64,000 nt of DNA, taken from a virus. Lineage: Duplodnaviria > Caudoviricetes. A model generated the notes under the pieces. It ran no database searches. It was not told the DNA's origin and saw only the letters and a program-made list of their open reading frames with translations. Of the stretch, positions 1 through 35,573 are shown piece after piece. Made by a program: the position numbers and the translations under genes. The stretch lies in IMG/VR virus record IMGVR_UViG_3300031949_001696. One strand, 5' to 3'. Numbering within the stretch: the first letter of the stretch is position 1; each line of letters starts with the position of its first letter.

Positions 1-938
1 ATCACGCGCGTCGCGATCAGGCGATCGAGATCTGCCGCGCGAGCCTCGCCGGCGTCCTTCGCCGCGACCGGCGAATCGAGTCCCAGCAGCAGCTTCTGTG
101 CCTCGGGCGCCAACGGGCCGTCCATCAGGCGCGCCCAGAGCGCGATCTCGACTTCCTCGAGACGCCGGGACAGCTCTAGCTCCTCGGCTCTGGTCAACAG
201 GTGATGCCCGCTGATCGCCGACGCATAGATCTGCGCGGCGTCCGGCGGCGCCGTTCGAGTGCGGCTATCAGAATGATCTTCGTCTCGCGTGATGCGGGTA
301 CTGTTTGTTCGCGCGGCCTCCGGCGGTGCCGATCGAGTGCGGCTATCAGAATGATCTTCATCGCGCATGATGCGGGTACTGTTTGTTCGCGCGGCATCCG
401 GCGCCGCCGTACGTCCACGGCCAGGATGATCCTCGTCGTCGTCGCGTTTGTTGCGACGAGGCGCCCGCGTCGCGGGTTCCCGCTTCCCGGCCGATCCGGA
501 TCGTGTGCCCCCTGCGGCCGACGCGCGCGTGTGGCGGCGTCCGCGACCGTTCCCTTCCGATCGCAGGAGGCCCATCTTGCGCAACGTGAAGATCTCGGTG
601 TGGAGGGTCCCGCGGTTGACCGGACGGTGCTCCTCCAGCTCGCGGCGGATCTCCATGGTCGACCGGGCCTGGCCATCGGAGAGTAGGCCCAGCACGGCCT
701 CACGGAGCGATCCGCTCGGCGGCTCCTTCGCCGGCGCGGCGAGAAGAAGTGGGGCACCCCGCACGCCACCCGAAGAGAGTTCGGCCATGTCGCCGCCCAG
801 GTCACCCTCGATCGTCGCGAGGAAGTGCCCGTAGTCCGAGGGCGCGAGGCGGCGGAACGCGGAGACGGCCTCGTCGATCCGCGCGCGCTGGTCCTGGCCA
901 GCTCGCAGATGCCGCACGATCGGAGAGTCGTCGCCCAC
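1..938 (-). CDS. Sigma-70 family factor with N-terminal winged-helix domain (partial, runs off left edge)
   Basis: Manual translation from GTG 938 is open to position 1. It contains a wHTH-like segment SLREAVLGLLSDGQARSTMEIRRELEEHRPVNRGTLHTEIFTLRKMGLL, then 23-aa repeats, then QIYASAISGHHLLTRAEELELSRRLEEVE resembling sigma70 region 1.2. Regions 2-4 would lie outside the window. Confidence 0.7.
   Translation of the reverse strand, partial: MGDDSPIVRHLRAGQDQRARIDEAVSAFRRLAPSDYGHFLATIEGDLGGDMAELSSGGVRGAPLLLAAPAKEPPSGSLREAVLGLLSDGQARSTMEIRRELEEHRPVNRGTLHTEIFTLRKMGLLRSEGNGRGRRHTRASAAGGTRSGSAGKREPATRAPRRNKRDDDEDHPGRGRTAAPDAARTNSTRIMRDEDHSDSRTRSAPPEAARTNSTRITRDEDHSDSRTRTAPPDAAQIYASAISGHHLLTRAEELELSRRLEEVEIALWARLMDGPLAPEAQKLLLGLDSPVAAKDAGEARAADLDRLIATRV
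233..432. repeat. About three 69-nt tandem repeats in the sigma-factor linker
   Basis: Unit ...cgagtgcggctatcagaatgatcttc...gatgcgggtactgtttgttcgcgcggc... is repeated and encodes (RTNSTRIxRDEDHSDSRTRxAPPxAA)n on the minus strand. Confidence 0.9.
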
Positions 939-2305: not shown

Positions 2306-2334
2306 TTGACAATGTCTCCACGGCTGTGTACACG
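2306..2334 (+). promoter_or_regulatory. Putative sigma70-type promoter for the RHH-cas12m-CRISPR unit
   Basis: Perfect TTGACA at 2306-2311, 17-nt spacer, TACACG at 2329-2334; GTG start at 2342 follows 7 nt later (possibly leaderless). Confidence 0.5.
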
Positions 2335-2341
2335 TCGTGAG

Positions 2342-2509
2342 GTGCCGATCCGGAGATCCAACGACCTCCACATCCGTCTCAAACCAACAGAGAGTCGCGC
2401 ATGGCGAGCTGCTGCGAAACGCGCGGACGTGACACTCAGTGATTGGGTACGTCAGCTCGGCAACGCTGCCGCAGTTCCACCACCTGTCGCCACGAAAGAA
2501 GGGAAGTGA
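2342..2509 (+). CDS. Ribbon-helix-helix (CopG/Arc-like) regulator
   Basis: VPIRRSNDLHIRLKPTESRAWRAAAKRADVTLSDWVRQLG has a beta-strand plus two-helix RHH pattern; its stop lies 3 nt before the cas12m ATG. Confidence 0.7.
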   Translation: MPIRRSNDLHIRLKPTESRAWRAAAKRADVTLSDWVRQLGNAAAVPPPVATKEGK

Positions 2510-2512
2510 CAC

Positions 2513-4588
2513 ATGCGCGTGTACAAGTTCCTCTGCATCCCCGCAACCGCTGCCGACGATCGCGCCTTGCGCGATCAAGTGTACTTGGGATCCCGCTACC
2601 GTCGACAGAGTGCGCTGATCGAGAACCGCGCGCGCGTGCTCCAGCGCGGGATCGCAGATCGACCGGCGCTGAATGTCCCGGAGAAGGATCGTTCCGCGTG
2701 GTGGAAATCGGAGGAGGGCAAGGCGGCACGCGACGCGTGGTACGCCTCCGACGAGTGCAAGATGCTCCGCGAGATCATCTTCGCGGAGAAGAAACGCGCG
2801 CTCAAAGCAGCGCGCGACGCCGCGATCGAGGCCGGCACCATGTGGGGAACGTGCGGCAAGGCGGACGACGCCGCAGACTTCGCGCGTCGCGCGGTCGACA
2901 AAAACGGCCTCATCGACGAGGACGGGCAGACCACGTTCGTGGACACGCACTTTCCCGCGGACGTGGGCCGCATCGCCGTGCAGTTCCAGAGGGGCAACGA
3001 GCGGATCGACACCCGCACGGGCAAAAAGATCCCCGCGAAGAAGCTCATCTACGCCGATGACCTGATCGGCGATGAGGATACGCGGCTCCGCATCGGGACC
3101 GTCGCCTACGCGCTGGCCGAGCCTGTCGACGGGTTCAGGCCCGCTGCGATCGACGCTGAGGGCAAAGCGATCGACGTCTACACGCGCGGCCTCAGCGAGC
3201 GAGAACAAGATCTACTCGCGCGAGATCAACGAGAAGAAGCGATCGCTGCCTACGCCGCTCGCACGCCCGCCAGCATCGATCCGTCGGGTAACATCTGCAA
3301 GACGCCCGAACAGAAGGCCGTCACGAAGATCGTCCGCTGGGAGCGTGGCGAGCGAGACGAGAAAGGCAAGCGCTACCATTCTCTCGCGATTCGCGTAGGG
3401 ACCATGCCGGGCACGATCCGTCCGATCTGGGCACACCTGCACGTGATGCTTCATCAGAGCCCGCGATCCAAGAATCAACTCGTGCTCGGCCACGACGTCG
3501 TCAAGTGGGCCGTGATCCGGCGCGAACGGACGGGCCTGCGCTATCGCTGGTTCCTCACGCTCGAGACCGAGGGGGACGTGGCGGTGACATCGCCGCATCC
3601 CCAGCCTCACGACGCGATCGCCGTCCACATCGGCTGGCGGCAGCTCTTCAGCGAAGCCGGCGATCCTGCCGGCATCCGCGTGCTCACGTGGAGCGCCAGC
3701 GCGCCGCTCGATCCCGACGATCCGCGGAGTCCCCGCGAGGGACAGCTCGTGCTTCCGCAGGAAGTCGTCGACCAGAAGCCGTTCGCCGATCGCATCCATT
3801 CGACCCGCGACAAGAACCAGGACGTGCTCCGCGACATGATCCTCGTGTACGCGCGATCGCTGCCGACGTCGTCGTGGCTGCGAGTCGAAGCTGCCCACAT
3901 GCACCAATGGCGCGCGCCCCGCAAGTACGTGCGTCTGTACTGCCAGTGGAAGGAGCAACGCATCCACGGCGATCAGGCCGCGTTCGCGGCGCTGGAGGCA
4001 TGGATCAAGCAAGATCGTCACCTGCTTCACCGCGAGGCGCCGAGCATCGAGCGCATGAAGCGTCAGATCGAGGGCAGGGTCACCGCGCTCGCGGTCCAGC
4101 TGGCCAAGCGCTACGGCGTCGTCGCCAGCGATAACATCGCCGTGGGCGAGCTGGTCAAGAAGGACGACCGCCACGACGAGGACGAGCAGAAGCTGCGCAA
4201 GAAGACGGCGCGGCGTGTGAACGTCGTGGCGCCGGGCGAAGCGCGAGCGCTCGTCCGCTACTTCGCGAAGAAGTACGGCTGTGTCGGCCTGGAGCTCGAC
4301 GCGGCGGGAGGCACGATCGACTGCGACGCGTGCGGACATCGACGTGACGTCGCCCGAGAAGACCGCGTGCAGCGGATGATCCGCTGCGAGAATTGCGGTC
4401 ACGTCGAGGACCAAGATCTCACGATGAGTCGGAACCTCCTGTCGGGTGCGAGCGCCGTCGCTCGCGGCGAGAGTGGGTGGCCGCTCGCGCCCAAGGTTCC
4501 GGCAGCTTCCACGAAGAAGCGAGCGACCGTCCGACGGAATCGGCGACGCGGGCAGCAGCCGCTCGCAAGCAGTGTCGGAACGCCGTAA
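2513..4588 (+). CDS. cas12m: Type V-M (V-U1) CRISPR effector, Cas12m-like, predicted nuclease-inactive
   Basis: TnpB/Cas12 layout: RuvC-I AIAVHIGWR (D to H), RuvC-II VVASDN (E to D), Zn ribbon CDACGH...CENCGH, RuvC-III DQDLTMSRNL. The H-D-D triad is the Cas12m hallmark. CRISPR array starts 25 nt downstream. Confidence 0.85.
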   Translation: MRVYKFLCIPATAADDRALRDQVYLGSRYRRQSALIENRARVLQRGIADRPALNVPEKDRSAWWKSEEGKAARDAWYASDECKMLREIIFAEKKRALKAARDAAIEAGTMWGTCGKADDAADFARRAVDKNGLIDEDGQTTFVDTHFPADVGRIAVQFQRGNERIDTRTGKKIPAKKLIYADDLIGDEDTRLRIGTVAYALAEPVDGFRPAAIDAEGKAIDVYTRGLSEREQDLLARDQREEAIAAYAARTPASIDPSGNICKTPEQKAVTKIVRWERGERDEKGKRYHSLAIRVGTMPGTIRPIWAHLHVMLHQSPRSKNQLVLGHDVVKWAVIRRERTGLRYRWFLTLETEGDVAVTSPHPQPHDAIAVHIGWRQLFSEAGDPAGIRVLTWSASAPLDPDDPRSPREGQLVLPQEVVDQKPFADRIHSTRDKNQDVLRDMILVYARSLPTSSWLRVEAAHMHQWRAPRKYVRLYCQWKEQRIHGDQAAFAALEAWIKQDRHLLHREAPSIERMKRQIEGRVTALAVQLAKRYGVVASDNIAVGELVKKDDRHDEDEQKLRKKTARRVNVVAPGEARALVRYFAKKYGCVGLELDAAGGTIDCDACGHRRDVAREDRVQRMIRCENCGHVEDQDLTMSRNLLSGASAVARGESGWPLAPKVPAASTKKRATVRRNRRRGQQPLASSVGTP

Positions 4589-4613
4589 GATTCTTGGATC
4601 TTTGACAACTTAA

Positions 4614-7600
4614 GTAGCAATCGATGCGAGACCTCGCACTGGTCTCGACACGTAGGTTCCCGAGTCGGAGCGCATCTCGCCCGGCATGTAGCAATCGATG
4701 CGAGACCTCGCACTGGTCTCGACACCGTCAACGTCCACTTCGGCGCCGAGCACACCAAGTTCGTAGCAATCGATGCGAGACCTCGCACTGGTCTCGACCT
4801 CGAGCTTGCGCTTGAAGTTGGAGCGATCCTCACGTAGCAATCGATGCGAGACCTCGCACTGGTCTCGACAGTTGGTGGGGTTGGCGGAGTTGGCGCGCTC
4901 GCCGGATCGTAGCAATCGATGCGAGACCTCGCACTGGTCTCGACGAAAACAATAGCGCACCGAACGACGCAAGGTCGATCGTGTAGCAATCGATGCGAGA
5001 CCTCGCACTGGTCTCGACTCTTTGATCTCGGAGACGGGCACCACGCGTGAGAATCGGGTAGCAATCGATGCGAGACCTCGCACTGGTCTCGACCGATCAC
5101 TTGCCGCGCCGACCGGTCGGATGGGGTGGTAGCAATCGATGCGAGACCTCGCACTGGTCTCGACCAGACCGACGCACCAGCTGAGGCACACCACGCCGTT
5201 GGTAGCAATCGATGCGAGACCTCGCACTGGTCTCGACCGAGAGAAACGCTCGCTGTGACTCGACCGCCGATCGTGTAGCAATCGATGCGAGACCTCGCAC
5301 TGGTCTCGACAGCGCAAAGCTCCCCTGGTGGAGGAAAGCATTGCGGGTAGCAATCGATGCGAGACCTCGCACTGGTCTCGACGGCAGCGTGCTCCGCGCG
5401 AGCTGGCGCGCGACCTGGTAGCAATCGATGCGAGACCTCGCACTGGTCTCGACATTCACCACCTGCGCGTCTTGGTCGGCGAGTAGCAATCGATGCGAGA
5501 CCTCGCACTGGTCTCGACGTCTCGACCCAACGACCTACGTCACGGCCGAATGAGTCGACGATGTAGCAATCGATGCGAGACCTCGCACTAGTCTCGACAA
5601 AAGGCAGGCGACTTCGATGCGAGACCTCGCACTGGTCTCGACTATGTCCTCACGCAGCAGCGGGCCGATTACAACTTCGTAGCAATCGATGCGAGACCTC
5701 GCACTGGTCTCGACCGCCAACCCTTCCGTCACGCGGAAAGAAGTCGACGATCGTAGCAATCGATGCGAGACCTCGCACTGGTCTCGACGGCACCTCAACA
5801 GGCGACGAAACGCGCCAGCGTACGAGTAGCAATCGATGCGAGACCTCGCACTGGTCTCTGGTCTCGACTTCCGAGACGTTACTGGCTAACCTTCTTCAGA
5901 GACCCTAGTAGCAATCGACCTCGCACTGGTCTCGACATGCTCGACGGCTACATCCTCAGCACCGGCGCGGTCGTAGCAATCGATGCGAGACCTCGCACTG
6001 GTCTCGACGTAGAACTCCTCCAACGTGATTCGAGACAGGCGATTTCGTAGCAATCGATGCGAGACCTCGCACTGGTCTCGACGGAAATGTCTCACGACGA
6101 CAACGACGACGAGCAGGCGCGTAGCAATCGATGCGAGACCTCGCACTGGTCTCGACCGGCCAAACCGTCTGGCATCAACTCCGCGATGACACTAGTAGCA
6201 ATCGATGCGAGACCTCGCACTGGTCTCGACTCCCCAGCACACCACGTACACCGCCGAGTCTCAATCGTAGCAATCGATGCGAGACCTCGCATTGGCCTCG
6301 ACCGGCTGTTGTGCTCGGCCACGTGATCAGCGCGCGCGTAGCAATCGATGCGAGACCTCGCACTGGTCTCGACCCCTTGACGTACGCGAGGATCCTTCGG
6401 CCTTCGGCCGTTCGGGTGTAGCAATCGATGCGAGACCTCGCACTGGTCTCGACGATATCTCGTCCTCCAGCGCCAGCACCCTCGAACCGGTAGCAATCGA
6501 TGCGAGACCTCGCACTGGTCTCGATTCGGGCCTGAGGTAGCGATCACGGCCGACGAGCTGCGTAGCAATCGATGCGAGACCTCGCACTGGTCTCGACACA
6601 GAAGAAGCTGATGCGATCGATGCGAGACCTCGCACTGGTCTCGACGATATCTCGTCCTCCAGCGCCAGCACCCTCGAACCGGCAGCAATCGATGCGAGAC
6701 CTCGCACTGGTCTCGACGACGGTCTCTTGTCCGAGGACGAGTGCATCCGCAGATCGTAGCAATCGATGCGAGACCTCGCACTGGTCTCGACTTGTCCTCC
6801 ATTCGTCGGACGCTAGCGGGCGAGACGGGTACCGTCGGGTAGCAATCGATGCGAGACCTCGCACTGGTCTCGACTCCGCTATCATCTGGCAGATCGCGCA
6901 GCACCGCTCGTGTAGCAATCGATGCGAGACCTCGCACTGGTCTCGACACCGAGCAACTCAAGTTGCTGCGCGAAGCACCGAAGGTAGCAATCGATGCGAG
7001 ACCTCGCACTGGTCTCGACAAGCGTTACTGAGAAGGGAGAAGGGAGCTGCCGCAGCTCCGGCGTAGCAATCGATGCGAGACCTTGCACTGGTCTCGACGA
7101 GCTGGATCTCCCGGATTCCTTCCGATCCGCCGAGGTAGCAATCGATGCGAGACCTCGCACTGGTCTCGACCGCAACTCCGGCTCGCTATCGTCGAGATCG
7201 ATTGGAGTAGCAATCGATGCGAGACCTTGCACTGGTCTCGACTCGCTTCTGGAGATGGACCTCAAGCCTGGTGCACCTGTAGCAATCGATGCGAGACCTC
7301 GCGCTGGTCTCGACGTCACTGAGGCACCTGGATTGCTGACGTGACTCCGCACGTAGCAATCGATGCGAGACCTCGCACTGGTCTCGACACCGTCATACCC
7401 CCCGACGCGCACGTGCTCGGCGACGTAGCAATCGATGCGAGACCTCGTACTGGTCTCGACCAAATTCGAGAACCTGATCGATGCATCATCCGCGGTCGTA
7501 GCAATCGATGCGAGACCTCGCACTGGTCTCGACATTCAAGAAGCCAGCGACTGCGAACCGCCGACCGCCGGGTAGCAATCGATACGAGACCTCGCACTGG

Positions 7601-8494
7601 TCTCGACGTGAACCACGCGACCTGGCCGCGACCGAGGGTCGGGTGTCGGGTAGCAATCGATGCGAGACCTCGCACTGGTCTCGACTGGTACAGCACGTAA
7701 ACGCCGGCGAGCGCAGCGGCGTAGCAATCGATGCGAGACCTCGCACTGGTCTCGACAAGATCGCGTTCGCAGTTGCGGCGCCGTTCATTCCGGTAGCAAT
7801 CGATGCGAGACCTCGCGCTGGTCTCGACTAGGGCGTCCCAATCAGCGCGAGCGCACGGGTCACAAGTAGCAATCGATGCGAGACCTCGCACTGGTCTCGA
7901 CGATCTACGATCTACCGCTGGATCATCAGACTGCCAGTGACGTGAGTAGCAATCGATGCGATACCTCGCACTGGTCTCGACTATACCGAGCGCAATTTCA
8001 ACCCTGTCGCACCGAAGCGTAGCAATCGATGCGAGACCTCGCACTGGTCTCGACGGGCCGACCATCGCCCTCACGTCCAGCATTCCCGATGTGTAGCAAT
8101 CGACGCGAGACCTCGCACTGGTCTCGACCGGCACCTCCGTACTCGGCAGCGAGAAGCCTCTTGAGTAGCAATCGCTGCGAGACCTCGCACTGGTCTCGAC
8201 AGTTCGAAACGCTCGATCACAAGTTGCAAGAGATCGTAGCAATCGCTGCGAGACCTCGCACTGGTCTCGACTCGCTAAGCGCTAAGGGACTAAGGGACCT
8301 CGAACCAAACGCTTCTAGCCTGTAGCAATCGCTGCGAGACCTCGCACTGGTCTCGACTCGCTAAGGGACCTCGAACCAAACGCTTCTAGCCTGTAGCAAT
8401 CGATGCGAGACCTCGCACTGGTCTCGACCTTACATTGCTGTCGCCACGGCACCCGGTCGCCGCCGCAGCTGTAGCAATCGATGCAAGACCGCAC
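4614..8494 (+). CRISPR. CRISPR array, about 54 repeats / 53 spacers (manual count)
   Basis: 36-nt repeat GTAGCAATCGATGCGAGACCTCGCACTGGTCTCGAC; spacers mostly 35-39 nt. Degenerate terminal repeat at 8471 and variants accumulating rightward indicate the leader is on the cas12m side. Confidence 0.99.
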
Positions 8495-8576
8495 GACGCG
8501 AACCGCTTCCTCGTGTAGCGGCAGCGGCTACTCCGGCGCACGTTCTGAGCCTTGACGCCTTGACGCGCTAGAGTGC

Positions 8577-11349: not shown

Positions 11350-11964
11350 TTGCCGCGGATGGCGTTTAATCGGGCGTGGCTATTGGTATCCGGGTACAGT
11401 TTCGGGAACACCATGGCAGCAGCCTGGAAATCATGGAAATCGATTCGTGACCAAGAACCGTGGCGCCAGCCCGAAATCGCCGAGGTGGATTTTGCGTGGC
11501 TAGCTGGTCTTTTGGAGGGAGAAGGCTGCTTTTCGCTTCAGAGCTATCGGAAACACCCCGCTGAGAAAATTGGCGGCTATCAAGTTCCTTCGATAGAGCT
11601 GAAAATGACAGATCGTGACGTTGTGCAACGTGCCGGCAAACTTCTCGGCGGTAAGCAGGGCCGTGTAAGAAGCCAACTTCGGAAGGAGCACGGGAAAGAC
11701 AGGAAACCGATCTTCATCTGGCGCGTCAATGGTCATCGAGCTGTCTATCTGATGAGTCTGCTTTTGCCCTTCATGGGAAAACGACGCTCATCTCGAATCC
11801 GCGAGTTGATTACGCTGCACAAGAGACAAGGTCCTCGTGGCGGTCACGGGATTACTCCAAGCCTTCGCTTCTCACATGTCACTACGTCGAGAAATGAATT
11901 CAACGCCAAACGCCGTGCAAAACGACGAGCCAAAACGGCTCGCAGCCGCCAGCGCGACGCATGA
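11350..11964 (+). CDS. Free-standing single-motif LAGLIDADG homing endonuclease-like protein (start may be 11413)
   Basis: FAWLAGLLEGEGCF, then IELKMTD and basic beta-strands; visibly more AT-rich than flanks. Confidence 0.8.
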   Translation: MPRMAFNRAWLLVSGYSFGNTMAAAWKSWKSIRDQEPWRQPEIAEVDFAWLAGLLEGEGCFSLQSYRKHPAEKIGGYQVPSIELKMTDRDVVQRAGKLLGGKQGRVRSQLRKEHGKDRKPIFIWRVNGHRAVYLMSLLLPFMGKRRSSRIRELITLHKRQGPRGGHGITPSLRFSHVTTSRNEFNAKRRAKRRAKTARSRQRDA

Positions 11965-12110
11965 CCGGCCGCGTCCGTCCGCGTATTTTCCGGTCGTTTC
12001 GGGAATCATTACGCCTTGTGACGACCTGCATCTCGGCTAATATGGCACCGCGCGCGAGCGCTGGTGGACGTTTTGCAATAGAGCAGGGCGCGATTGGAAA
12101 GGTCTGTGCA

Positions 12111-13088
12111 ATGTCCACCCACGTGTCTTGGGGAAGCATCGAGCTTCTTCACAATGCCGTCCGCACGCTGACGCACCTCACAGAGCAAGGTCGACCGTTT
12201 CCGGTCGTCACGTACCGCGCGAAGGTGAAGCTGCACGGCACCAACTGCGCCGTCCAAGTAAGCGATCACGACATCGTCGCGCAGAGCCGCACGCAGCAAC
12301 TGTCGCCGGAAGCCGACTACAAGGGATTCGCGGCGTGGACGCACGCGCATGCGACGTTCTGGCGAGCGCGCGCGGCCGGGCTCCAACCGTCCTCCGACCA
12401 GAGACTCGTCGTATTCGGCGAATGGTGCGGCCCCGGCGTCGAGAAGGGCATGGCCATCTCGCAGGCGCCGACGAAGCTGTTCTGCGTGTTCGCGATCCAA
12501 GCGACAGATCGAATGATCACCAAGCCGGCCGAGATCCAGGCGCTCTTGCCGGAGGCGCCGCCGGAGCTCCACGTGCTGCCGTGGGAGGGTGATCCGATCA
12601 CGATCGACTTCGGCTCGCGCGAGTCACTGGAGCAGGCCGCGAAGGTGCTGAGTGGTCGCGTCGCCGAGATCGAGCACGAGGATCCGTGGGTCAAACGCGT
12701 GCTCGGCATCAGCGGGCTCGGCGAGGGCCTCGTGCTCTATCCGACGTGGCCGACGCCGCACGATCCGACGTTGATGTTCAAGGCCAAGGGCGAGAAGCAC
12801 CGCACCGCGGGCGCGAAGGTAGCGGTCACCGTCGGCGCCGCGGTCGCATCGTCGATCGACGAATTCGTCGCGCTGATGGTGACCGACGCACGCCTCGAGC
12901 AGGGCCTCGCGACGGCATGTGACGGCACGCGTGATCCGAAGCGGACCGGTGCGTTCCTCATGTGGATCGCGACGGACGTACGCAAGGAGTCGGTCGCGGA
13001 GCTGGAGGCATCGAACCTCGCGTGGGCTCAGGTCGAGAAGGCCATCTCCGCGCGAGCGCGGACGTGGTTTCTGAAGGGAGGTGCGTGA
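12111..13088 (+). CDS. ATP-dependent RNA ligase, Rnl2 family
   Basis: Motif I KLHGTN, III VFGEWCG, IV GEGLVL, V FKAKGEKH. Confidence 0.85.
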   Translation: MSTHVSWGSIELLHNAVRTLTHLTEQGRPFPVVTYRAKVKLHGTNCAVQVSDHDIVAQSRTQQLSPEADYKGFAAWTHAHATFWRARAAGLQPSSDQRLVVFGEWCGPGVEKGMAISQAPTKLFCVFAIQATDRMITKPAEIQALLPEAPPELHVLPWEGDPITIDFGSRESLEQAAKVLSGRVAEIEHEDPWVKRVLGISGLGEGLVLYPTWPTPHDPTLMFKAKGEKHRTAGAKVAVTVGAAVASSIDEFVALMVTDARLEQGLATACDGTRDPKRTGAFLMWIATDVRKESVAELEASNLAWAQVEKAISARARTWFLKGGA

Positions 13089-13963
13089 TGAGTCTTCGGC
13101 ACGTGATCGCGGTGGGCGGCAAGCTCCATCCACCGAGCTGGCTTCCCGACAACCTCTGCTACGAGACGATGATGGGATCGGTCGCGTACGGCGTCTCGTC
13201 GGACACCTCCGACGTCGACGTCTACGGCATCTGCATGCCGCCGAAGGACACCGTGTTCCCGCACCTCGCCGGCGAGGTCTTCGGGTTCGGCGCCCAGGTC
13301 AAGCGCTTCGAGAGCTGGCAGGAGCACCACGTCGCCGCGGAGGGCAAGAGTTGGGACTTCCAGATCCTCGGCATCGTCAAATTCTTCCAGCTCGCGATGG
13401 AGAACAACCCGAACATCATCGACTCGATGTTCACGCCGCGGCGCTGCGTGCTGTCGTCGACAGCGATCGGGGAGTACATCCGCGAGCACCGCGTCGACTT
13501 TTTGCACAAGGGTGCGTGGCACAAGTTCAAGGGCTACGCGTACAGCCAGCTCAACAAGATCCGGACCAAAACGCCGACGGGCAAGCGCGCCGAGCTGGTC
13601 GAGGCGCACGGCTACGACACGAAGTTCGCGTATCAAGTCGTCCGTCTGCTGCTGGAGGTCGAGCAGATCCTCGTCCACCGCGACATCGATCTCGAGCGCG
13701 ATCGAGAGCAGCTCAAGGCGATCCGGCGCGGCGAGTGGACCCTGCCGCAGATCGACGAGTGGGCCCAAGACAAAGAAAAGCAGCTGGAGACGCTCTACCA
13801 TACGAGCACGCTGCCGTATGGCCCCGACGAAGCGCGGCTACGCCGCCACCTGATGCACTGCCTCGAAGCGCACTACGGCGATCTGTCGACGGTCGTCGTC
13901 GATCCCGCCGCGGAGACGCGACTCCTGCGCGAGATCGCGAAGCTCACCGAGCGCTATCGATAG
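13088..13963 (+). CDS. Pol-beta superfamily nucleotidyltransferase (RlaP-like)
   Basis: GSVAYG...SDVDVYG, NNPNIID, GYDTKFAY; TGATG overlap with the ligase gene. Confidence 0.85.
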   Translation: MSLRHVIAVGGKLHPPSWLPDNLCYETMMGSVAYGVSSDTSDVDVYGICMPPKDTVFPHLAGEVFGFGAQVKRFESWQEHHVAAEGKSWDFQILGIVKFFQLAMENNPNIIDSMFTPRRCVLSSTAIGEYIREHRVDFLHKGAWHKFKGYAYSQLNKIRTKTPTGKRAELVEAHGYDTKFAYQVVRLLLEVEQILVHRDIDLERDREQLKAIRRGEWTLPQIDEWAQDKEKQLETLYHTSTLPYGPDEARLRRHLMHCLEAHYGDLSTVVVDPAAETRLLREIAKLTERYR

Positions 13964-22488: not shown

Positions 22489-23316
22489 TCAGCTCGACGG
22501 CGACTTCGTAGCTTGAGAGCCGATCAGCAGCTCGTGATCGAGTCGCGAGAGATCCGCGAAACGATGCAGCCCCGTCTTGTACTCATCAGGGATGCCTTCG
22601 AGCCCAAACCGCGCGCCGAGGACCGCACCCGCGATCGCACCTCGAGTGTCGGTATCGCCACCGAGCTTGATGGCCGCGATCACGCCATCTCGAAAACTAT
22701 CGTGGTGAAGCGCGCAGTAGATCGCGGTCGCGGTGATCTGCCACGCGTTACCGCGGCGGCCCGCACTTGCGTTCATGAATTCTTCTGGGCTCGCGCCCAG
22801 GGACAACGTGATGCTCGCGCGAATCAGCGCCCCTTCGACGTGTGTCTGTGGATGTTGGCTGCCGCTACGTCGCGAGAAGCTAATCAGTCTGTCGATCACG
22901 TGCGGCAGGATGGCGCGGCGTGTGACGCCATCCTGAAGTGCGAGGCTGACCGTCATCGCGACCGCGAAGCTCGCCGCGATGGCTTCTGGATCTGCGTGCG
23001 TGATGTACGCGTCCGATCTGCACGCGTTAAGAAGCGCCGCTCCGTTTTTGTAGAACGCGCCGATCGGAGCAGCCCGCATCGGTGGAGCGCTGCCGACCTT
23101 GTGAGGATCGTCGAACGCTATGCCGCTATGTTGCCAGCGCACGCCCTCGCCCAGCGCTTCCATCGCCAGCCGCGTTGTTCCGCCCATGCCGTGCGGTGTC
23201 CCCTGCGACCATGCGAGGTAGCGCCTGGCGACGTCGGCGCCGTCGAAGCCGTGACACGCGATCAGCGACGTCGCGAGGCATTCGGCCATCTCGGTGTCGT
23301 CCGTAAAATGTCCGGC
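22489..23316 (-). pseudogene. ADP-ribosylglycohydrolase (DraG/ARH family), C-terminal portion
   Basis: AGHFTDDTEM, MRAAPIG, GGDTDTRGAIAGAVLGA. It lacks the GDALG N-terminus, which is found at 47821-47970. Confidence 0.85.
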
Positions 23317-24295: not shown

Positions 24296-24877
24296 TCACG
24301 AGGGGCTCCTTTCTTCGTTGGCCTTCTTGAGCGCAAAGAACAGCTCGCCTTGCTCGATCGCGTCGTCGATCGCGACATGCGTGTGCGGACGGCTCTTCGA
24401 CACGTACTTCTTCATCGTCTGCTTGGTGACCTCGCGGTACCCGCAGCGCATGAGCGCCATCGCGTAGGTCTTGATGTCGAGCGCGGAGAACGAGAACGGA
24501 CTCTTGCCAGATCCAAGGAACCGGATCAGGTACCAATAGACGAATAGGAAGTCGAAGCCGGCCGGATATCCGACGAACACAGGCTTGCCTCCGCCACGCT
24601 CCGCCACGCTCTTGACCCAGCTTGCGAACATCGGCATCGCGACGTCGGGCGAGATCGGGCTAGCGCGACACGCCTTCCACGCCTCGGGCTGCGTCTCCCA
24701 CCACTTCATGGTGTCTGCGTCGGAGATCGCGCCGCGCAGCTCCTCAAGGTTGATCGTGTACGTGTCGATCATCTTGCCGGTACCGTCGAAGGCGGCGGCG
24801 CCCAACGACAGCATTGAGTTGATGCCCGGAATGGGCCCGTCGGTCTCGATGTCCACGCTGAAGTAGATTTCGCTCAT
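24296..24877 (-). CDS. DEDDh 3'-5' exonuclease (RNase AS-like)
   Basis: [21 protein letters not shown]. Confidence 0.85.
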
Positions 24878-32458: not shown

Positions 32459-33988
32459 TTACGCGCCTTTCTGAGCAGTGCGCGGAGCCAATCGCGCTCG
32501 GCCATAAAGCAGTCTCTCAATAGCCGCGCTAATGGCTAGTTTGTCTTTCTGCCAGTTACGAACGGTGTCAGGAGACACGGCCAGAAGATCAGCGGCAGCT
32601 GAGATACTCGCGCCATGAAACGTCGGGCTCGCTGCGGACCGAGCTGCGCGCAGGATGCTGCGCACGCATTCTTTGTCTCCGCATGACTTTCGTTTCGCGA
32701 AGACGCACGGACTGTCGCCGTCCCGTGGTTCAAGCAGCACACTACAGCCTGGACATCGGCGCCCATCAACAAGCTTCGTGGTGGTTCGTACCAGAGAGGC
32801 GTATTTGCTCGCACATGTCCCTTCACCACAGGTCTTTCGCCCTACGAAGTTTTCTAGCCTTTCCCCGGCCCTCCGCTCAATAAGCTCATCACAGATTGGA
32901 CAGTGCCTCGCGACAACCACGGTGACGGCTCTTTTGAGCGCGCTTGCTTTGGTCGCGCAGCCTGCTTTCATGCCGCACGTCTTCCGCCTCATGAAAACGC
33001 ACGGCGTTTCGCCGCCTTTTCGTTTGAGTGGTTTCGTACAGCTCGGGCAGCACCGCCCTGCGATAACCTTCGTAGTCGTCTGGAGGTTGCTTGCGCATTT
33101 TTGGCCGCACGTCGAGCGCTTCGCGAATTCGTATAGCGGTTCGCCCTCTTTCCGCTCGAGCAACTTCTTGCAACTCGGGCGTGGGCAGCGACGCCCCGCG
33201 ACGATCTTCGTCGTGGTGCGTACCATAGACTTGTACTTGCTCACGCACGCCTTATCACAGCACGTGGCGCGTTTGGAAAACCACGTCAGGCTTTCCCAGG
33301 CCCTCCGCTCAAGCACCGCGTCACAGCTTGGACAACAGCGTCCCGCAACAACCTTCACGGCGGGTTTTTGTGCGGCAACCCACGCAAAAGCGCACTTACG
33401 ACTGCACGTCTTTCGCTTCACGAACCTGTGCTGCGCTTCGCCTTCCTTCTGCTTGAGCGTTTTTCTACAACTCGGACTCGGACAGCGGCGACCGGTAACG
33501 ACCTTCGTAGTCGTCCTGAACTTGCTCAGGCACTCGTCTCGGCCGCACGTCTTCCGCTTCGCGAATGACCACGTCTTCTCACCCTCTTTTTGCCTGAGCA
33601 GCTTCTTGCAGCTCGGACAGCGGCGTCCAACGACGATCTTCGTCGTGGTCCTCACCGCGGACAAGAGTTTGGCCCCGCAGCCCTCTTTATTATGGCCGCA
33701 CGTCTTCCGCTTCGCGAACGCAGACAGTGACTCGGCCTTTTTTTGCTTGAGCAGCTTCTTACAACTCAGGCAACGGCGACCGACGACGATCTCGGTGACA
33801 ATTCTTTTCGCCGCGCCAAGCTGATAGACGCACGTGCGATCGCACGTCTTTCTTTTTGCGAAGTCACACGGCTTCTCTCCGTTTTTGCGCTTGAGCTTCT
33901 TCTTGCAGCTCTCACAACGGCGCCCTGTGACATCCTTCGTAGCGATCAGTGGCGCAGTGAGCTTGGAGCGGAGGGAGGAGAGCTTCAC
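32459..33988 (-). CDS. Nine-repeat Cys4 zinc-finger-array protein with C-terminal HTH (start could be 34081)
   Basis: 9 x [K(I/V)VxGRRCxxC..L.(R/Q)K.GExxxxF.KRKTC..C], then FHGASISAAADLLAVSPDTVRNW; GGAGG before GTG 33988. Confidence 0.8.
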   Translation of the reverse strand: MKLSSLRSKLTAPLIATKDVTGRRCESCKKKLKRKNGEKPCDFAKRKTCDRTCVYQLGAAKRIVTEIVVGRRCLSCKKLLKQKKAESLSAFAKRKTCGHNKEGCGAKLLSAVRTTTKIVVGRRCPSCKKLLRQKEGEKTWSFAKRKTCGRDECLSKFRTTTKVVTGRRCPSPSCRKTLKQKEGEAQHRFVKRKTCSRKCAFAWVAAQKPAVKVVAGRCCPSCDAVLERRAWESLTWFSKRATCCDKACVSKYKSMVRTTTKIVAGRRCPRPSCKKLLERKEGEPLYEFAKRSTCGQKCASNLQTTTKVIAGRCCPSCTKPLKRKGGETPCVFMRRKTCGMKAGCATKASALKRAVTVVVARHCPICDELIERRAGERLENFVGRKTCGEGTCASKYASLVRTTTKLVDGRRCPGCSVLLEPRDGDSPCVFAKRKSCGDKECVRSILRAARSAASPTFHGASISAAADLLAVSPDTVRNWQKDKLAISAAIERLLYGRARLAPRTAQKGA

Positions 33989-34070
33989 ACGCCCTCCCAA
34001 AGCTCGGCGATCTGCCTCGCGGTGAGTACGGCGGCGCGTTTCACGAACTCGCCACCAAAGCCATTCCAGC

Positions 34071-35573
34071 TCACCGCACACCTTCTTGAGTGGTGCGCGG
34101 AGTCGGGCGTGCTCGATTACAAAGGTCTTTCGGCTGGAGGGACTTCTCGATAGCCGTGTCGATAGTCATTCCACAGCTCCGCCAATTATGAATCGTAGAG
34201 CTTGTCACACCTAGAAGTGCAGCGGCAGCTGAGACGTCCGTCCCATGAAACAGTTTCTTATACTGACACTCTTCATCTCGACATAACTTTCGTTTTGCGA
34301 AACTGCTCGCGCTCTCGTTATTCCGTTGTTCAAGCAGCTTTCTACATCTCAGGCATCGCCGCCCAGCGATGACCTTTGTAGTGGTGCGCACCCTGGATTT
34401 ATTCTTACGAACGCATACTTCATCACCGCACGTCGCTCGTTTTGCAAAAGCACTCGGACTTTCCCCGGCGCTCTGCTCAAGAAGCTCAGCGCAGATTGGA
34501 CAACGGCGCCCTGCGACGATCTTCGTGGTAGTTGTGTGTGCCGCTCCCAGCAGGACGGCACACTCACCGCCGCATGTCTTTCGTGCCGCGAATGCACTTG
34601 GCGCCTCCCCCTTTCTTGGTTTGAGTAGCTTCGTACAACTCGGACAGCGGCGCCCGACGACAACCTTCGTGGTCGTCAGGAACCTATACACACATCGTTT
34701 TTTACCGCACGTTTTCCGCACAGCGAACGCGGCTACGGGCTCGCCCTCTTTTCGCTTGAGCGACTTCCTACAACTCGGACAGCTTCTCCCTGCGACGACC
34801 TTCGTGGTGGTCAGCACTTCGGCCAAGTGTTTTGCTGCGCAGCCCGCTTTCTTGCCGCACGTCTTTCGACTCAAAAAGTCATTCCGTGACTCTCCTTCTC
34901 TTCGCTTCAATGCTTTTTTGCAGCCGGGTGCCAGACAAAAACGCGCTGGATCGCTCTTCGCCCAGGTCGCGGATAGCAGGCTGCCATAACATTTCTCCCC
35001 GCACGTCTTCCGTCCCGCGAAGGCGTTTAGCGCCTCGCTCTTTCTTCGCTTGAGCAGCTTCCTACAACTCGGACAGCGTCGCCGCGTGACGGTGCGAACA
35101 ACTCCGCCGCTGTGAATGACATGTTGGTGCCAGCTCACGCACTTCTTTCGACCACACGTCTTCCGTCTTGCAAATGAGCTTAGCGACTCGCCTTTTTTTC
35201 GCTTGAGCAGCTGCTTACAACTTGGGCAACGTCGCCCCGCGACGACCTTGATGGTGGTCCTTGTCGCCTTGCTAAGTTTTGCCGCACAGCCTGCTTTATG
35301 ACCGCACGTCTTCCGCCGCGCGAAGAAAAAAGGCGATTCGCTCTCCTTTCGCTCAAGCACTTTGTCGCAGATCCGACAACAACGCCCCGCGACGATCTTG
35401 GTAATGAACCTTTTCGCCATGCCCAGTAGGGCCGCACAGCCCGCTTTCTTACCGCACGTCTTCCGACTTGCGAAGTTACCGAGCTGCTCTCCCTCCTTCC
35501 GCTTGAGCACCTTGCCGCAGACCAGGCAACGACGCCCTGCGACGATCTTGAAGGAAGAGCGTTGCGCCATCAT
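34071..35573 (-). CDS. Nine-repeat Cys4 zinc-finger-array protein with C-terminal HTH (paralog)
   Basis: Same repeat x9, then FHGTDVSAAAALLGVTSSTIHNW. Confidence 0.8.
   Translation of the reverse strand: MMAQRSSFKIVAGRRCLVCGKVLKRKEGEQLGNFASRKTCGKKAGCAALLGMAKRFITKIVAGRCCRICDKVLERKESESPFFFARRKTCGHKAGCAAKLSKATRTTIKVVAGRRCPSCKQLLKRKKGESLSSFARRKTCGRKKCVSWHQHVIHSGGVVRTVTRRRCPSCRKLLKRRKSEALNAFAGRKTCGEKCYGSLLSATWAKSDPARFCLAPGCKKALKRREGESRNDFLSRKTCGKKAGCAAKHLAEVLTTTKVVAGRSCPSCRKSLKRKEGEPVAAFAVRKTCGKKRCVYRFLTTTKVVVGRRCPSCTKLLKPRKGEAPSAFAARKTCGGECAVLLGAAHTTTTKIVAGRRCPICAELLEQSAGESPSAFAKRATCGDEVCVRKNKSRVRTTTKVIAGRRCLRCRKLLEQRNNESASSFAKRKLCRDEECQYKKLFHGTDVSAAAALLGVTSSTIHNWRSCGMTIDTAIEKSLQPKDLCNRARPTPRTTQEGVR

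What the first reader, a model, noticed from the sequence alone, without database searches (positions are those of the whole stretch)
2306..8494. Element-borne, nuclease-dead Cas12m with an RHH regulator and a very long array but no adaptation genes
Seen: promoter, RHH gene, 691-aa effector with H-D-D RuvC, a 25-nt gap, then about 53 spacers, all amid phage-like genes with no cas1/2/4 in 64 kb. Known: Cas12m binds dsDNA without cutting and silences or blocks targets; phage arrays are usually short. Inference: a multiplexed CRISPRi-like system used against competing elements or host genes. Spacers would be acquired in trans and the unit autoregulated by the RHH.
Basis: partly seen in the sequence, partly recalled or inferred. 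Interest (0 to 1): 0.85.

Follow-up and report, generated by a model that had tools for sequence, protein, structure and literature searches.

The report
Phage-borne Cas12m CRISPR locus, long array
A large soil mobile element, probably a giant phage, carries a known kind of non-cutting CRISPR system (Cas12m) with a small regulator-like gene and an unusually long 53-spacer array; it is a well-supported new example with a few new twists, not a new kind of system.

Summary
A 55-aa RHH-like gene (2342-2509) sits 3 nt before a 691-aa effector (2513-4588). A 25-nt gap follows, then an array of 54 repeat units and 53 spacers (4614-8506).

The effector is a true type V-M Cas12m by sequence profile, predicted fold, PADLOC model and repeat architecture. 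Its RuvC triad is H372-D540-D635.

The H-D-D triad, binding without cleavage and absence of cas1/2/4 are all published for V-M. A 2026 preprint already reports a phage Cas12m. The scan had also already followed up a sister Cas12m locus about 28 kb upstream on the same ~333-kb contig.

Four things are new:
- The array is much longer than the 8-unit arrays of MsCas12m and MV-1. It is clearly polarised, and relatives in other samples carry other spacers.
- The RHH gene is under purifying selection and confined to the P0001-P0004 subclade.
- This H-D-D triad arose separately from the Mm/GoCas12m one (sister protein is D-E-D; AU p 0.0098 full length, 0.09 C-terminal half).
- The effector is enlarged by a ~50-aa insertion.

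No spacer target, PAM or expression evidence was found. Silencing, RHH autoregulation and in-trans adaptation remain inferences.

The parts
2306..2334 (+). Candidate promoter of the RHH-cas12m operon: -35 TTGACA (2306-2311), 17 nt, weak -10 TACACG (2329-2334). The 21-nt block 2313-2333 between them holds the 8-bp palindrome GTGTACAC (2326-2333) and two TGTNT motifs about 12 nt apart. This block is the candidate RHH operator.
   Evidence: Sequence. The block is conserved in L012, where 21 of 44 RHH codons carry synonymous changes. L004 has the same geometry: TTGACT, 17 nt, TAGCTA, then 6 nt to GTG. The generic promoter scan does not report the site. The operator role is inference.
2342..2509 (+). 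55-aa ribbon-helix-helix-like gene with a GTG start 7 nt after the -10 (leaderless geometry). Its stop lies 3 nt before the cas12m ATG.
   Evidence: Pfam NikA-like (an RHH family) at E 1.4e-4, 22.4 bits, below the 27-bit cut-off. Homologues lie upstream of P0003 and P0004. Against L012 there are 21 synonymous and 6 non-synonymous codon changes. The homodimer model scores 0.43 against a best control of 0.00, with residues 8-13 of the two copies paired.
2513..4588 (+). cas12m, the 691-aa type V-M effector (P0001). RuvC residues are H372 (3626-3628), D540 (4130-4132) and D635 (4415-4417). The Zn ribbon uses C604, C607, C625 and C628. The tail 660-691 is basic and disordered. A ~50-aa insertion (about residues 229-283) is shared only with P0002.
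4589..4613 (+). 25-nt leader remnant with the conserved motif TCTTTGACAAC (4599-4609) just before the first repeat.
   Evidence: The motif is conserved at the same place in L004, L011, L012 and L003, even though L003's repeat differs. L003 also has an internal copy inside its array. Its function (integration site or promoter element) is not known.
4614..8506 (+). CRISPR array of 54 repeat units and 53 spacers. The 36-nt repeat has a 3' hairpin (CGAGACC/GGTCTCG) followed by AC. The cas12m end is the young end and the terminal repeat (8471-8506) is degenerate.
   Evidence: None of repeats 1-13 is mutated against 18 of repeats 14-52 (Fisher p 0.002). The stem shows compensatory changes in L004 and L003.

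Best explanation
This is a type V-M CRISPR-Cas12m locus carried by a large soil mobile element, most likely a jumbo phage.

Proposed mechanism, step by step:
1. One transcript starts at the promoter at 2306-2334. It encodes a small RHH dimer and the Cas12m effector, and probably runs on into the array. Co-transcription with the array is inferred.
2. Cas12m itself cuts the long transcript into guides made of a repeat-derived 5' handle (hairpin plus AC) and a spacer. This is inferred from MsCas12m and MmCas12m.
3. Each guide directs PAM-dependent binding to double-stranded DNA.
4. With an H-D-D RuvC site the protein holds the DNA without cutting it. That blocks transcription or replication of the target. 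This is inferred from MmCas12m2 and GoCas12m.

The 53 guides most likely aim at protein-coding DNA of other high-GC mobile elements that compete for the same host. That would be superinfection exclusion or inter-phage conflict.

The RHH most likely represses its own promoter and so sets the effector dose (inferred).

New spacers enter at the cas12m-proximal end. They are made by adaptation proteins encoded elsewhere, since none is in the window (inferred).
For: Family membership:
- A profile of the clade hits only Cas12m chains at full length: 23vw 5e-97, Cas12m2 1.6e-60, GoCas12m 5.5e-59. TnpB-like chains match only the C-terminus, at 2e-20 or weaker.
- The model (pLDDT 85.6, pTM 0.77) matches Cas12m2 and GoCas12m at E 1e-23 to 1e-26 and TM 0.55-0.76. 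The next hits are near 1e-8.
- The best PADLOC model is Cas12u1 at 8.8e-39.

Active site: H372, D540 and D635 align with the H-D-D columns of an M. lentiflavum protein. That protein matches Cas12m2 at 1e-127 and GoCas12m at 6e-125. For H-D-D enzymes, loss of the second metal and of cleavage is shown in PMC10442227. D-E-D, H-D-D and N-D-D Cas12m all bind without cutting in PMC11013384.

Guide architecture:
- The repeat shares the 5' GTAGCAA, a 3' hairpin and a terminal AC with the MsCas12m repeat.
- The stem covaries in relatives.
- No anti-repeat exists in the window.

Array dynamics:
- Mutated repeats are 0 of 13 at the near end and 18 of 39 further on (p 0.002).
- The terminal repeat is degenerate.
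- Contigs of other soil and sediment runs join two copies of this repeat across spacers that are absent from the window.

Targets: spacers have GC 0.62 and codon-like 3-nt periodicity (z 5.8) with no orientation bias.

RHH:
- Conserved gene with 21 synonymous and 6 non-synonymous codon changes.
- The homodimer model supports binding: score 0.43, best of 3 controls 0.00. That mark was reached by 20 of 30 proteins solved as pairs of one chain and by 1 of 23 solved as single chains. Runs agree in at least 94% of contacts and pLDDT is at least 71.
- RHH dimers are well represented among solved structures, so this pass shows likeness to them, not that this copy binds.

Context: no Cas1, Cas2 or Cas4 family in about 50 window ORFs. 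The window has PHROG-type accessory genes and an integrase.
Against: - No protospacer was found for any spacer, so the target class and PAM are unknown.
- The -10 element is weak and fails a generic promoter scan.
- The array carries damage: a 7-nt deletion in one repeat, two 5'-truncated repeats after 8- and 12-nt remnants, duplicated spacers and several 7-nt tandem duplications. Part of it may therefore be non-functional.
- The RHH Pfam match is below the curated cut-off.
- The RHH is missing from the H-D-D relatives P0005 and P0007 and from the D-E-D sister P0008. It is therefore not required by the effector.
- The phage nature of the contig rests on earlier scan notes. I could not check them, because the window holds no structural gene.
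- Absence of adaptation genes is shown for the window only.
Confidence: 0.7

Rival explanations
1. The array is a gene-control library rather than a weapon against rivals. The dead Cas12m silences host genes, or the element's own genes, during infection or carriage. That would be programmable takeover or a temporal control of the element's gene expression.
For: Cas12m acts by blocking transcription (PMC10442227, PMC11013384). Spacers look like coding DNA with GC 0.62, close to the element's 0.63. No spacer matched any isolate phage or plasmid, and none of six spacers matched IMG/VR.
Against: No spacer matches the 60 kb of the element visible here outside the array; the best match is 16-19 nt, at chance level. 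There is no orientation bias relative to coding phase. Spacer content differs between closely related elements. That fits an arms race better than fixed regulatory targets. Host genomes were not searched with spacers.
Confidence: 0.15
2. The locus is a decaying relic. The array was inherited from a donor that had adaptation genes, it no longer grows, and it has little present function.
For: No adaptation genes are in the window. The array has internal deletions, truncated repeats, duplicated spacers and tandem duplications. The identical first 21 repeat-spacer units occur in a second assembly (L001).
Against: The effector ORF is intact. Seven homologues at 59-88% identity keep all motifs. The RHH shows purifying selection. 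The 13 leader-proximal repeats are perfect and decay is strictly polar. Relatives carry the same repeat with other spacers.
Confidence: 0.08
3. Despite the H-D-D site, this effector is catalytically active in some way, for example nicking, collateral cleavage or RNA cleavage. It would then act as a nuclease system.
For: This H-D-D site arose independently of the tested Mm/Go lineage, so their biochemistry need not transfer. All three positions still hold metal-binding residues.
Against: Every Cas12m tested so far fails to cut DNA or RNA, including the D-E-D forms (PMC11013384). In Cas12m2 the His and the shorter Asp abolish the second metal site (PMC10442227). The same two substitutions occur here.
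Confidence: 0.05

Closest known systems
MmCas12m2 (Mycolicibacterium mucogenicum; PDB 8HHL, 8HIO) and GoCas12m (Gordonia otitidis; PDB 8PM4), type V-M
   Same: Same family and fold, as the best Foldseek hits over the full length. Same H-D-D RuvC triad. Single crRNA with a 3' hairpin and terminal AC, and no tracrRNA. Array but no other cas genes.
   Different: Only about 18% identity in the structural alignment. The proteins lie in a different part of the family tree, and the H-D-D here arose separately. The effector here has 691 aa against 596-614. This locus is on a phage-like element rather than in a bacterium or plasmid. It also has an RHH gene upstream and a much longer array.
MsCas12m (Allomeiothermus silvanus plasmid pMESIL02) and the Cas12m of PDB 23vw
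   Same: 23vw is the best sequence hit (phmmer 1.8e-20, profile 5e-97). The MsCas12m repeat shares the 5' GTAGCAA, the hairpin and the terminal AC. The array lies downstream on the same strand.
   Different: MsCas12m has a D-E-D triad, and 23vw aligns Asp and Glu at the first two positions. MsCas12m has 536 aa, 8 repeats and no RHH gene annotated upstream.
MvCas12m of myxophage MV-1 (bioRxiv 10.64898/2026.09.14.751636)
   Same: Phage-encoded type V-M locus without cas1, cas2 or cas4 and without tracrRNA. No spacer targets were found there either.
   Different: MV-1 has a D-E-D triad, 610 aa and only 8 spacers. The text I read mentions no regulator gene.
Cas12j (CasPhi) and other CRISPR systems of huge phages (PMC7162821)
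   Same: Compact type V effector with an array on a huge phage, no adaptation module, and a presumed role against competing elements.
   Different: Cas12j is an active nuclease of another subtype; Foldseek scores it near 1e-6 here. The array here is far longer than the 8-spacer phage V-M array of MV-1.

Membership tests
Type V-M CRISPR-Cas (Cas12m, formerly V-U1) | Effector homologous over its full length to characterised Cas12m proteins, and closer to them than to TnpB or other Cas12 subtypes | tested here: met
   The top 5 PDB profile hits are all Cas12m, spanning profile positions about 20-545 of 589. TnpB-like chains match only the C-terminus, at 2e-20 or weaker. The best PADLOC model is Cas12u1 at 8.8e-39.
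Type V-M CRISPR-Cas (Cas12m, formerly V-U1) | Cas12m fold: WED, REC with long coiled-coil helices, RuvC, and a C4 zinc-ribbon TNB domain | tested here: met
   Model with pLDDT 85.6 and long helices at 13-48 and 80-107. Foldseek gives 8HHL, 8HIO, 8PM4 and 8HHM at E 1e-23 to 1e-26 and TM 0.55-0.76. C604, C607, C625 and C628 are invariant.
Type V-M CRISPR-Cas (Cas12m, formerly V-U1) | RuvC triad of a type seen in the family (D-E-D, H-D-D or N-D-D) | tested here: met
   H372, D540 and D635 fall in the same alignment columns as the H-D-D of a protein matching Cas12m2 at 1e-127.
Type V-M CRISPR-Cas (Cas12m, formerly V-U1) | Adjacent array whose repeat has a 3' stem-loop and family-typical ends; a single crRNA with no tracrRNA | tested here: met
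   36-nt repeat with a hairpin at -12.2 kcal/mol followed by AC, with covariation in relatives. Shares GTAGCAA, hairpin and AC with the MsCas12m repeat. No anti-repeat of 12 nt or more in the window.
Type V-M CRISPR-Cas (Cas12m, formerly V-U1) | No other cas genes in the locus | tested here: met
   No Cas1, Cas2 or Cas4 family among about 50 window ORFs. This covers the window only, and small ORFs were not all scanned.
Type V-M CRISPR-Cas (Cas12m, formerly V-U1) | PAM-dependent dsDNA binding without cleavage, and self-processing of pre-crRNA | not testable with these tools
   Needs biochemistry. Inferred from PMC10442227 and PMC11013384.
Ribbon-helix-helix (RHH) DNA-binding proteins | Match to an RHH family profile above its cut-off | tested here: inconclusive
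   NikA-like at E 1.4e-4 and 22.4 bits, below the 27-bit cut-off. DUF6290 at 0.049.
Ribbon-helix-helix (RHH) DNA-binding proteins | Obligate dimer whose N-terminal strands pair into an antiparallel ribbon | tested here: met
   Homodimer model scores 0.43 against a best control of 0.00. The mark was reached by 20 of 30 solved one-chain pairs and 1 of 23 single chains. Contacts agree at 94% or more and pLDDT is at least 71. Residues 9-11 of one copy touch 9-11 of the other. The pass may reflect likeness to solved RHH dimers.
Ribbon-helix-helix (RHH) DNA-binding proteins | Binds repeated operator sites in its own promoter | not testable with these tools
   The conserved block 2313-2333 with a palindrome and two TGTNT motifs is only a candidate.
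Jumbo (huge) bacteriophage genome | Virion structural and packaging genes on the same replicon | not tested
   None lies in this window. The claim rests on earlier scan notes (e1-5468001, e1-5468048) about other parts of a 332,853-bp contig, whose length is. The window shows only PHROG-type accessory genes and an integrase.

The most novel reading that the evidence does not exclude
These large soil elements maintain long, actively growing Cas12m arrays with no adaptation genes of their own. About 50 guides here, a second ~49-repeat locus noted earlier on the same contig, and at least 27 units on a related 461-kb contig point the same way. No sequenced species-representative genome carries the same repeat core. 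Spacer uptake would then use a route not yet described for V-M: either host Cas1-Cas2 acting on a foreign leader and repeat, or an uptake mechanism without Cas1. The RHH would gate the system. Separately, the convergent H-D-D site could mean selection specifically for tight binding without cutting in phage-versus-phage conflict.
Probability: 0.15. Interest if true: 0.75.

Novelty: new variant of a known kind. Interest (0 to 1): 0.45.

Why it matters
How V-M arrays gain spacers is open, because the subtype has no adaptation genes anywhere (PMC10691335). A 53-spacer array with clean polarity, and different spacers in close relatives, is a good natural case for asking that question.

An independent second origin of the H-D-D site suggests that this exact pair of substitutions is selected for, not merely tolerated.

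A compact, naturally dead, self-processing effector with a 50-guide natural array and a cognate small repressor could also interest people building multiplexed CRISPRi tools.

None of this changes the picture of what Cas12m is.

Tried and rejected
Spacer targets, all negative:
- The window outside the array gave only 11-19-nt chance matches.
- The whole array against isolate phages and plasmids in distant mode gave only E 0.1-0.3 noise.
- Exact 23-24-nt PAM-proximal seeds of spacers 1, 2, 3, 6, 19 and 25 found nothing in IMG/VR.
- All related loci fetched gave nothing.
- The scan's own index gave nothing.

Relatives in IMG/VR: none for the protein or for the repeat.

Repeat core in species-representative genomes: only two single chance matches inside coding DNA, and no array.

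Repeat core in JGI metagenomes: one real related array (L018) and two chance matches.

Whole-contig checks: no genome is held for the window. The 332,853-bp contig could not be fetched; only 4.5- and 2.5-kb copies came back. The 461-kb record behind L018 could not be searched. Absence of cas1/cas2 beyond the window, and the sister locus, therefore could not be verified here.

Expression: no RNA holder was listed among the sequencing runs. The runs laid were contigs only, with many parts of the stretch uncovered. Nothing can be said about transcription or processing.

Other negatives:
- The generic promoter and terminator scan reported no promoter, and terminator-like sites were at chance level.
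- No tRNA or Rfam family in the window.
- No PADLOC family matched the RHH ORF.

Rejected idea: that the leader TTGACA is the -35 of an array promoter. No acceptable -10 lies 16-18 nt downstream in the sequence.

Weaker test: the AU test on the C-terminal half alone did not reject a single H-D-D origin (p 0.09). Only the full-length alignment did.
Full report
**What is there.** The window has about 63% GC. On the + strand, a small ORF at 2342-2509 is followed 3 nt later by a 691-aa ORF at 2513-4588. After a 25-nt gap comes a CRISPR array.

The array has three kinds of repeat unit:
- 52 clean 36-nt repeats from 4614 to 8428.
- One repeat with a 7-nt internal deletion, inside the apparent 111-nt "spacer" at 5862-5972.
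- A degenerate terminal repeat at 8471-8506.

That gives 54 units and 53 spacers, mostly 35-39 nt long. Two repeats lack their first 8 nt and follow 8- and 12-nt spacer remnants. Spacer 25 equals spacer 28, and spacer 50 nearly equals spacer 51.

**The effector is Cas12m.**
- Pfam and NCBIfam see only the TnpB/Cas12f C-terminal domain.
- Against solved structures, the single sequence hits only two Cas12m entries.
- A profile of the clade hits 23vw (5e-97), Cas12m2 (1.6e-60), GoCas12m (5.5e-59) and UnCas12m4a (1.8e-40), all over the full length. TnpB, Fanzor and Cas12f match only the last ~140 positions.
- An AlphaFold2 model from a 44-sequence alignment is confident (pLDDT 85.6, pTM 0.77).
- Its four best Foldseek matches are the Cas12m2 and GoCas12m cryo-EM structures (E 1e-23 to 1e-26, TM 0.55-0.76). 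The next matches are near 1e-8.
- PADLOC's best model is Cas12u1, the old name of V-M.
- The repeat fits too. It shares the 5' GTAGCAA, a 3' hairpin and a terminal AC with the MsCas12m repeat on pMESIL02.
- The hairpin keeps pairing through compensatory changes in relatives: GAGACC/GGTCTC, GAGGCC/GGCCTC and GAGGACG/CGTCCTC.
- No anti-repeat lies in the window.

**The catalytic site.** The motifs AVHIGW, ASDN and EDQD give H372, D540 and D635. In a family alignment these fall in the same columns as the H-D-D of a Mycobacterium lentiflavum plasmid protein. That protein matches Cas12m2 at 1e-127 and GoCas12m at 6e-125.

For Cas12m2, His317 and Asp485 leave only one metal in the site, and cleavage is lost while the site still clamps the non-target strand (PMC10442227). 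D-E-D, H-D-D and N-D-D Cas12m proteins all bound DNA in a PAM-dependent way without cutting, and protected E. coli from plasmids and phages (PMC11013384). "Nuclease-dead" is therefore a sound inference here, but it is an inference.

**An independent H-D-D.** An exhaustive search found 1,824 representatives at E 0.001 or better.
- In a 149-row tree, the seven closest proteins (P0001-P0007, 59-88% identical) form a fully supported clade, and all are H-D-D.
- Their sister P0008 (49% identical, full length) is D-E-D.
- The whole group sits inside a clade that is mostly D-E-D.
- The Cas12m2-like protein lies elsewhere, and well-supported branches force at least four changes of the H-D-D state.
- With the three triad columns removed, forcing this clade and the Cas12m2-like protein together costs 92 log-likelihood units on the full-length alignment (p-AU 0.0098).
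- On the C-terminal half alone the cost is 43 units (p-AU 0.09).

So a separate origin is well supported but not beyond doubt, because the mycobacterial branch is long. A "gradual inactivation" pattern in V-M has been noted before (PMC10691335). This is a sharper example, not a new principle.

**The RHH gene.** The 55-aa product has the typical RHH pattern: a short strand (DLHIRL) followed by two helices.
- Its Pfam match to NikA-like, an RHH family, is below the cut-off.
- The gene is real. It lies at the same place before the effectors P0003 and P0004.
- Against the P0003 locus, 44 aligned codons show 21 synonymous and only 6 non-synonymous differences.
- A homodimer model supports binding: score 0.43, best of 3 controls 0.00. 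That mark was reached by 20 of 30 solved one-chain pairs and 1 of 23 single chains. Contacts agree at 94% or more, and pLDDT is at least 71.
- The N-terminal strands of the two copies pair with each other, as in RHH dimers. Many RHH dimers are solved, so the pass shows likeness rather than proof.
- The gene is absent before P0005, P0007 and the D-E-D sister P0008. It is an accessory of one subclade.

**The promoter.** All three RHH-bearing loci share the same promoter geometry: TTGAC(A/T), 17-18 nt, a weak -10, then 6-7 nt to the GTG start. That suggests a leaderless message. The 21-nt stretch between the hexamers is conserved between two loci whose synonymous sites have largely diverged. It holds the palindrome GTGTACAC across the -10 and two TGTNT motifs about one helical turn apart. 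I propose this as the operator, without a test. The generic promoter scan does not call the site.

**Array dynamics.** The 13 repeats nearest cas12m are perfect, while 18 of the other 39 carry changes (Fisher p 0.002). The far end is degenerate. This is the polarity expected from leader-end addition.

A short motif, TCTTTGACAAC, precedes the first repeat here and in four related loci. In one locus it also occurs inside the array, as if two arrays had fused.

A second assembly holds the same first 21 units (L001). In other soil and sediment runs, relatives about 90-95% identical in the gene have contigs that join two copies of this repeat across spacers absent from the window. Spacer content therefore differs between close relatives.

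**Adaptation genes and context.** About 50 window ORFs were scanned, including alternative frames. None matched Cas1, Cas2 or Cas4.

The window encodes a tyrosine integrase, a helicase, a DNA methylase, a 2OG-Fe(II) oxygenase, an RNA ligase, an RlaP-type nucleotidyltransferase, an ADP-ribosylglycohydrolase and an exonuclease. Many have PHROG matches, and many other ORFs match no family. It holds no structural gene, tRNA or Rfam family.

The protein's cluster lists a 332,853-bp contig, which I could not fetch. Earlier scan notes describe a capsid module and a second, D-E-D Cas12m locus with about 49 repeats roughly 28 kb upstream on the same contig. I used these as leads only.

Pairing of two Cas12m loci is independently visible in L018. 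There, a 461-kb metagenome contig carries a degenerate array of this repeat family directly followed by a D-E-D Cas12m gene.

No species-representative bacterial genome holds an array with this repeat core. No candidate host with matching repeats emerged.

**Targets.** None was found. The spacers themselves give one clue. Their GC content is 0.62, and they show codon-like 3-nt periodicity (z 5.8 against shuffles, close to real coding 37-mers of the window) with no orientation bias. Most protospacers therefore lie in protein-coding DNA of high-GC replicons. That fits other elements of the same host, or the host itself, but does not tell the two apart.

**Comparison and verdict.** The locus meets every testable criterion of type V-M. 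H-D-D, non-cleaving binding and lack of adaptation genes are family norms (PMC10442227, PMC11013384, PMC10691335). A phage Cas12m with a D-E-D triad and 8 spacers has been claimed as the first in a 2026 preprint (10.64898/2026.09.14.751636).

What this locus adds:
- An array far longer than the 8-unit MsCas12m and MV-1 arrays.
- Clear polarity, and different spacers in close relatives, without local adaptation genes.
- A conserved RHH gene in the operon.
- A separately evolved H-D-D site.
- An effector enlarged by a ~50-aa insertion shared only with P0002.

I rate it a new variant of a known kind, of moderate interest. The scan has already reported the sister locus on this contig, and other first-stage notes cover this same stretch.

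Noticed in passing
L014:1558-1685 and L013:4662-4814: Two D-E-D relatives (P0013, P0009) have two repeat-like units forming a mini-array directly upstream of cas12m, in addition to the downstream array. For a DNA-binding effector this could encode a cr-like RNA that represses the cas promoter, as described for other types (bioRxiv 10.1101/2023.03.03.530964). In those loci it occupies the place that the RHH gene holds here.
   Followed up: partly
L018 (461-kb metagenome contig), reverse strand 87-2740 and onward: A degenerate array of the same repeat family, with at least 27 units and many irregular spacings, is followed directly by a D-E-D Cas12m gene. That gene's upstream region matches the region upstream of P0007 in L010. 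Paired Cas12m loci therefore recur in these huge contigs.
   Followed up: partly
window 5826-5868, 6374-6417, 7020-7062, 7902-7945, 8272-8321; L003:5155-5211: Short 7-8-nt tandem duplications recur in repeats and spacers, for example CTGGTCT x2 in repeat 18, CCTTCGG x2, GAGAAGG x2, GATCTAC x2, and TGATCTC x3 in L003. This looks like a slippage-type mutational signature of these arrays.
   Followed up: no
L003:5155-5211: The array of the D-E-D sister locus contains an internal copy of the leader motif, and the repeat variant changes around it, as if two arrays had been joined.
   Followed up: no
window 32459-37726 (- strand): A ResIII/DEAD-type helicase of 718 aa (best PADLOC match a type IV restriction enzyme) is followed by two basic proteins of 500 and 540 aa. 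Both have repeated C4 zinc-finger-like units and a C-terminal HTH. GC drops to 0.58-0.60 here. This may be a separate defence or regulatory island.
   Followed up: partly
window 11350-13963 (+ strand): A LAGLIDADG-like ORF, an RNA ligase and an RlaP-type nucleotidyltransferase lie in a row, forming an RNA-repair-like cluster. An ADP-ribosylglycohydrolase (22489-23289) and an Rv2179c-like exoribonuclease (24296-24877) lie further on.
   Followed up: no
window 3-938 (- strand): An ORF running off the window start has a weak sigma-70 region 1.2 match and a PadR-like winged-helix stretch. It diverges from the Cas12m operon about 1.4 kb away.
   Followed up: no
window 2329-2344; L012 and L004 equivalents: In all three RHH-bearing loci the GTG start lies 6-7 nt after the -10 element with no Shine-Dalgarno sequence. 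This leaderless-mRNA geometry may hint at the host group.
   Followed up: partly
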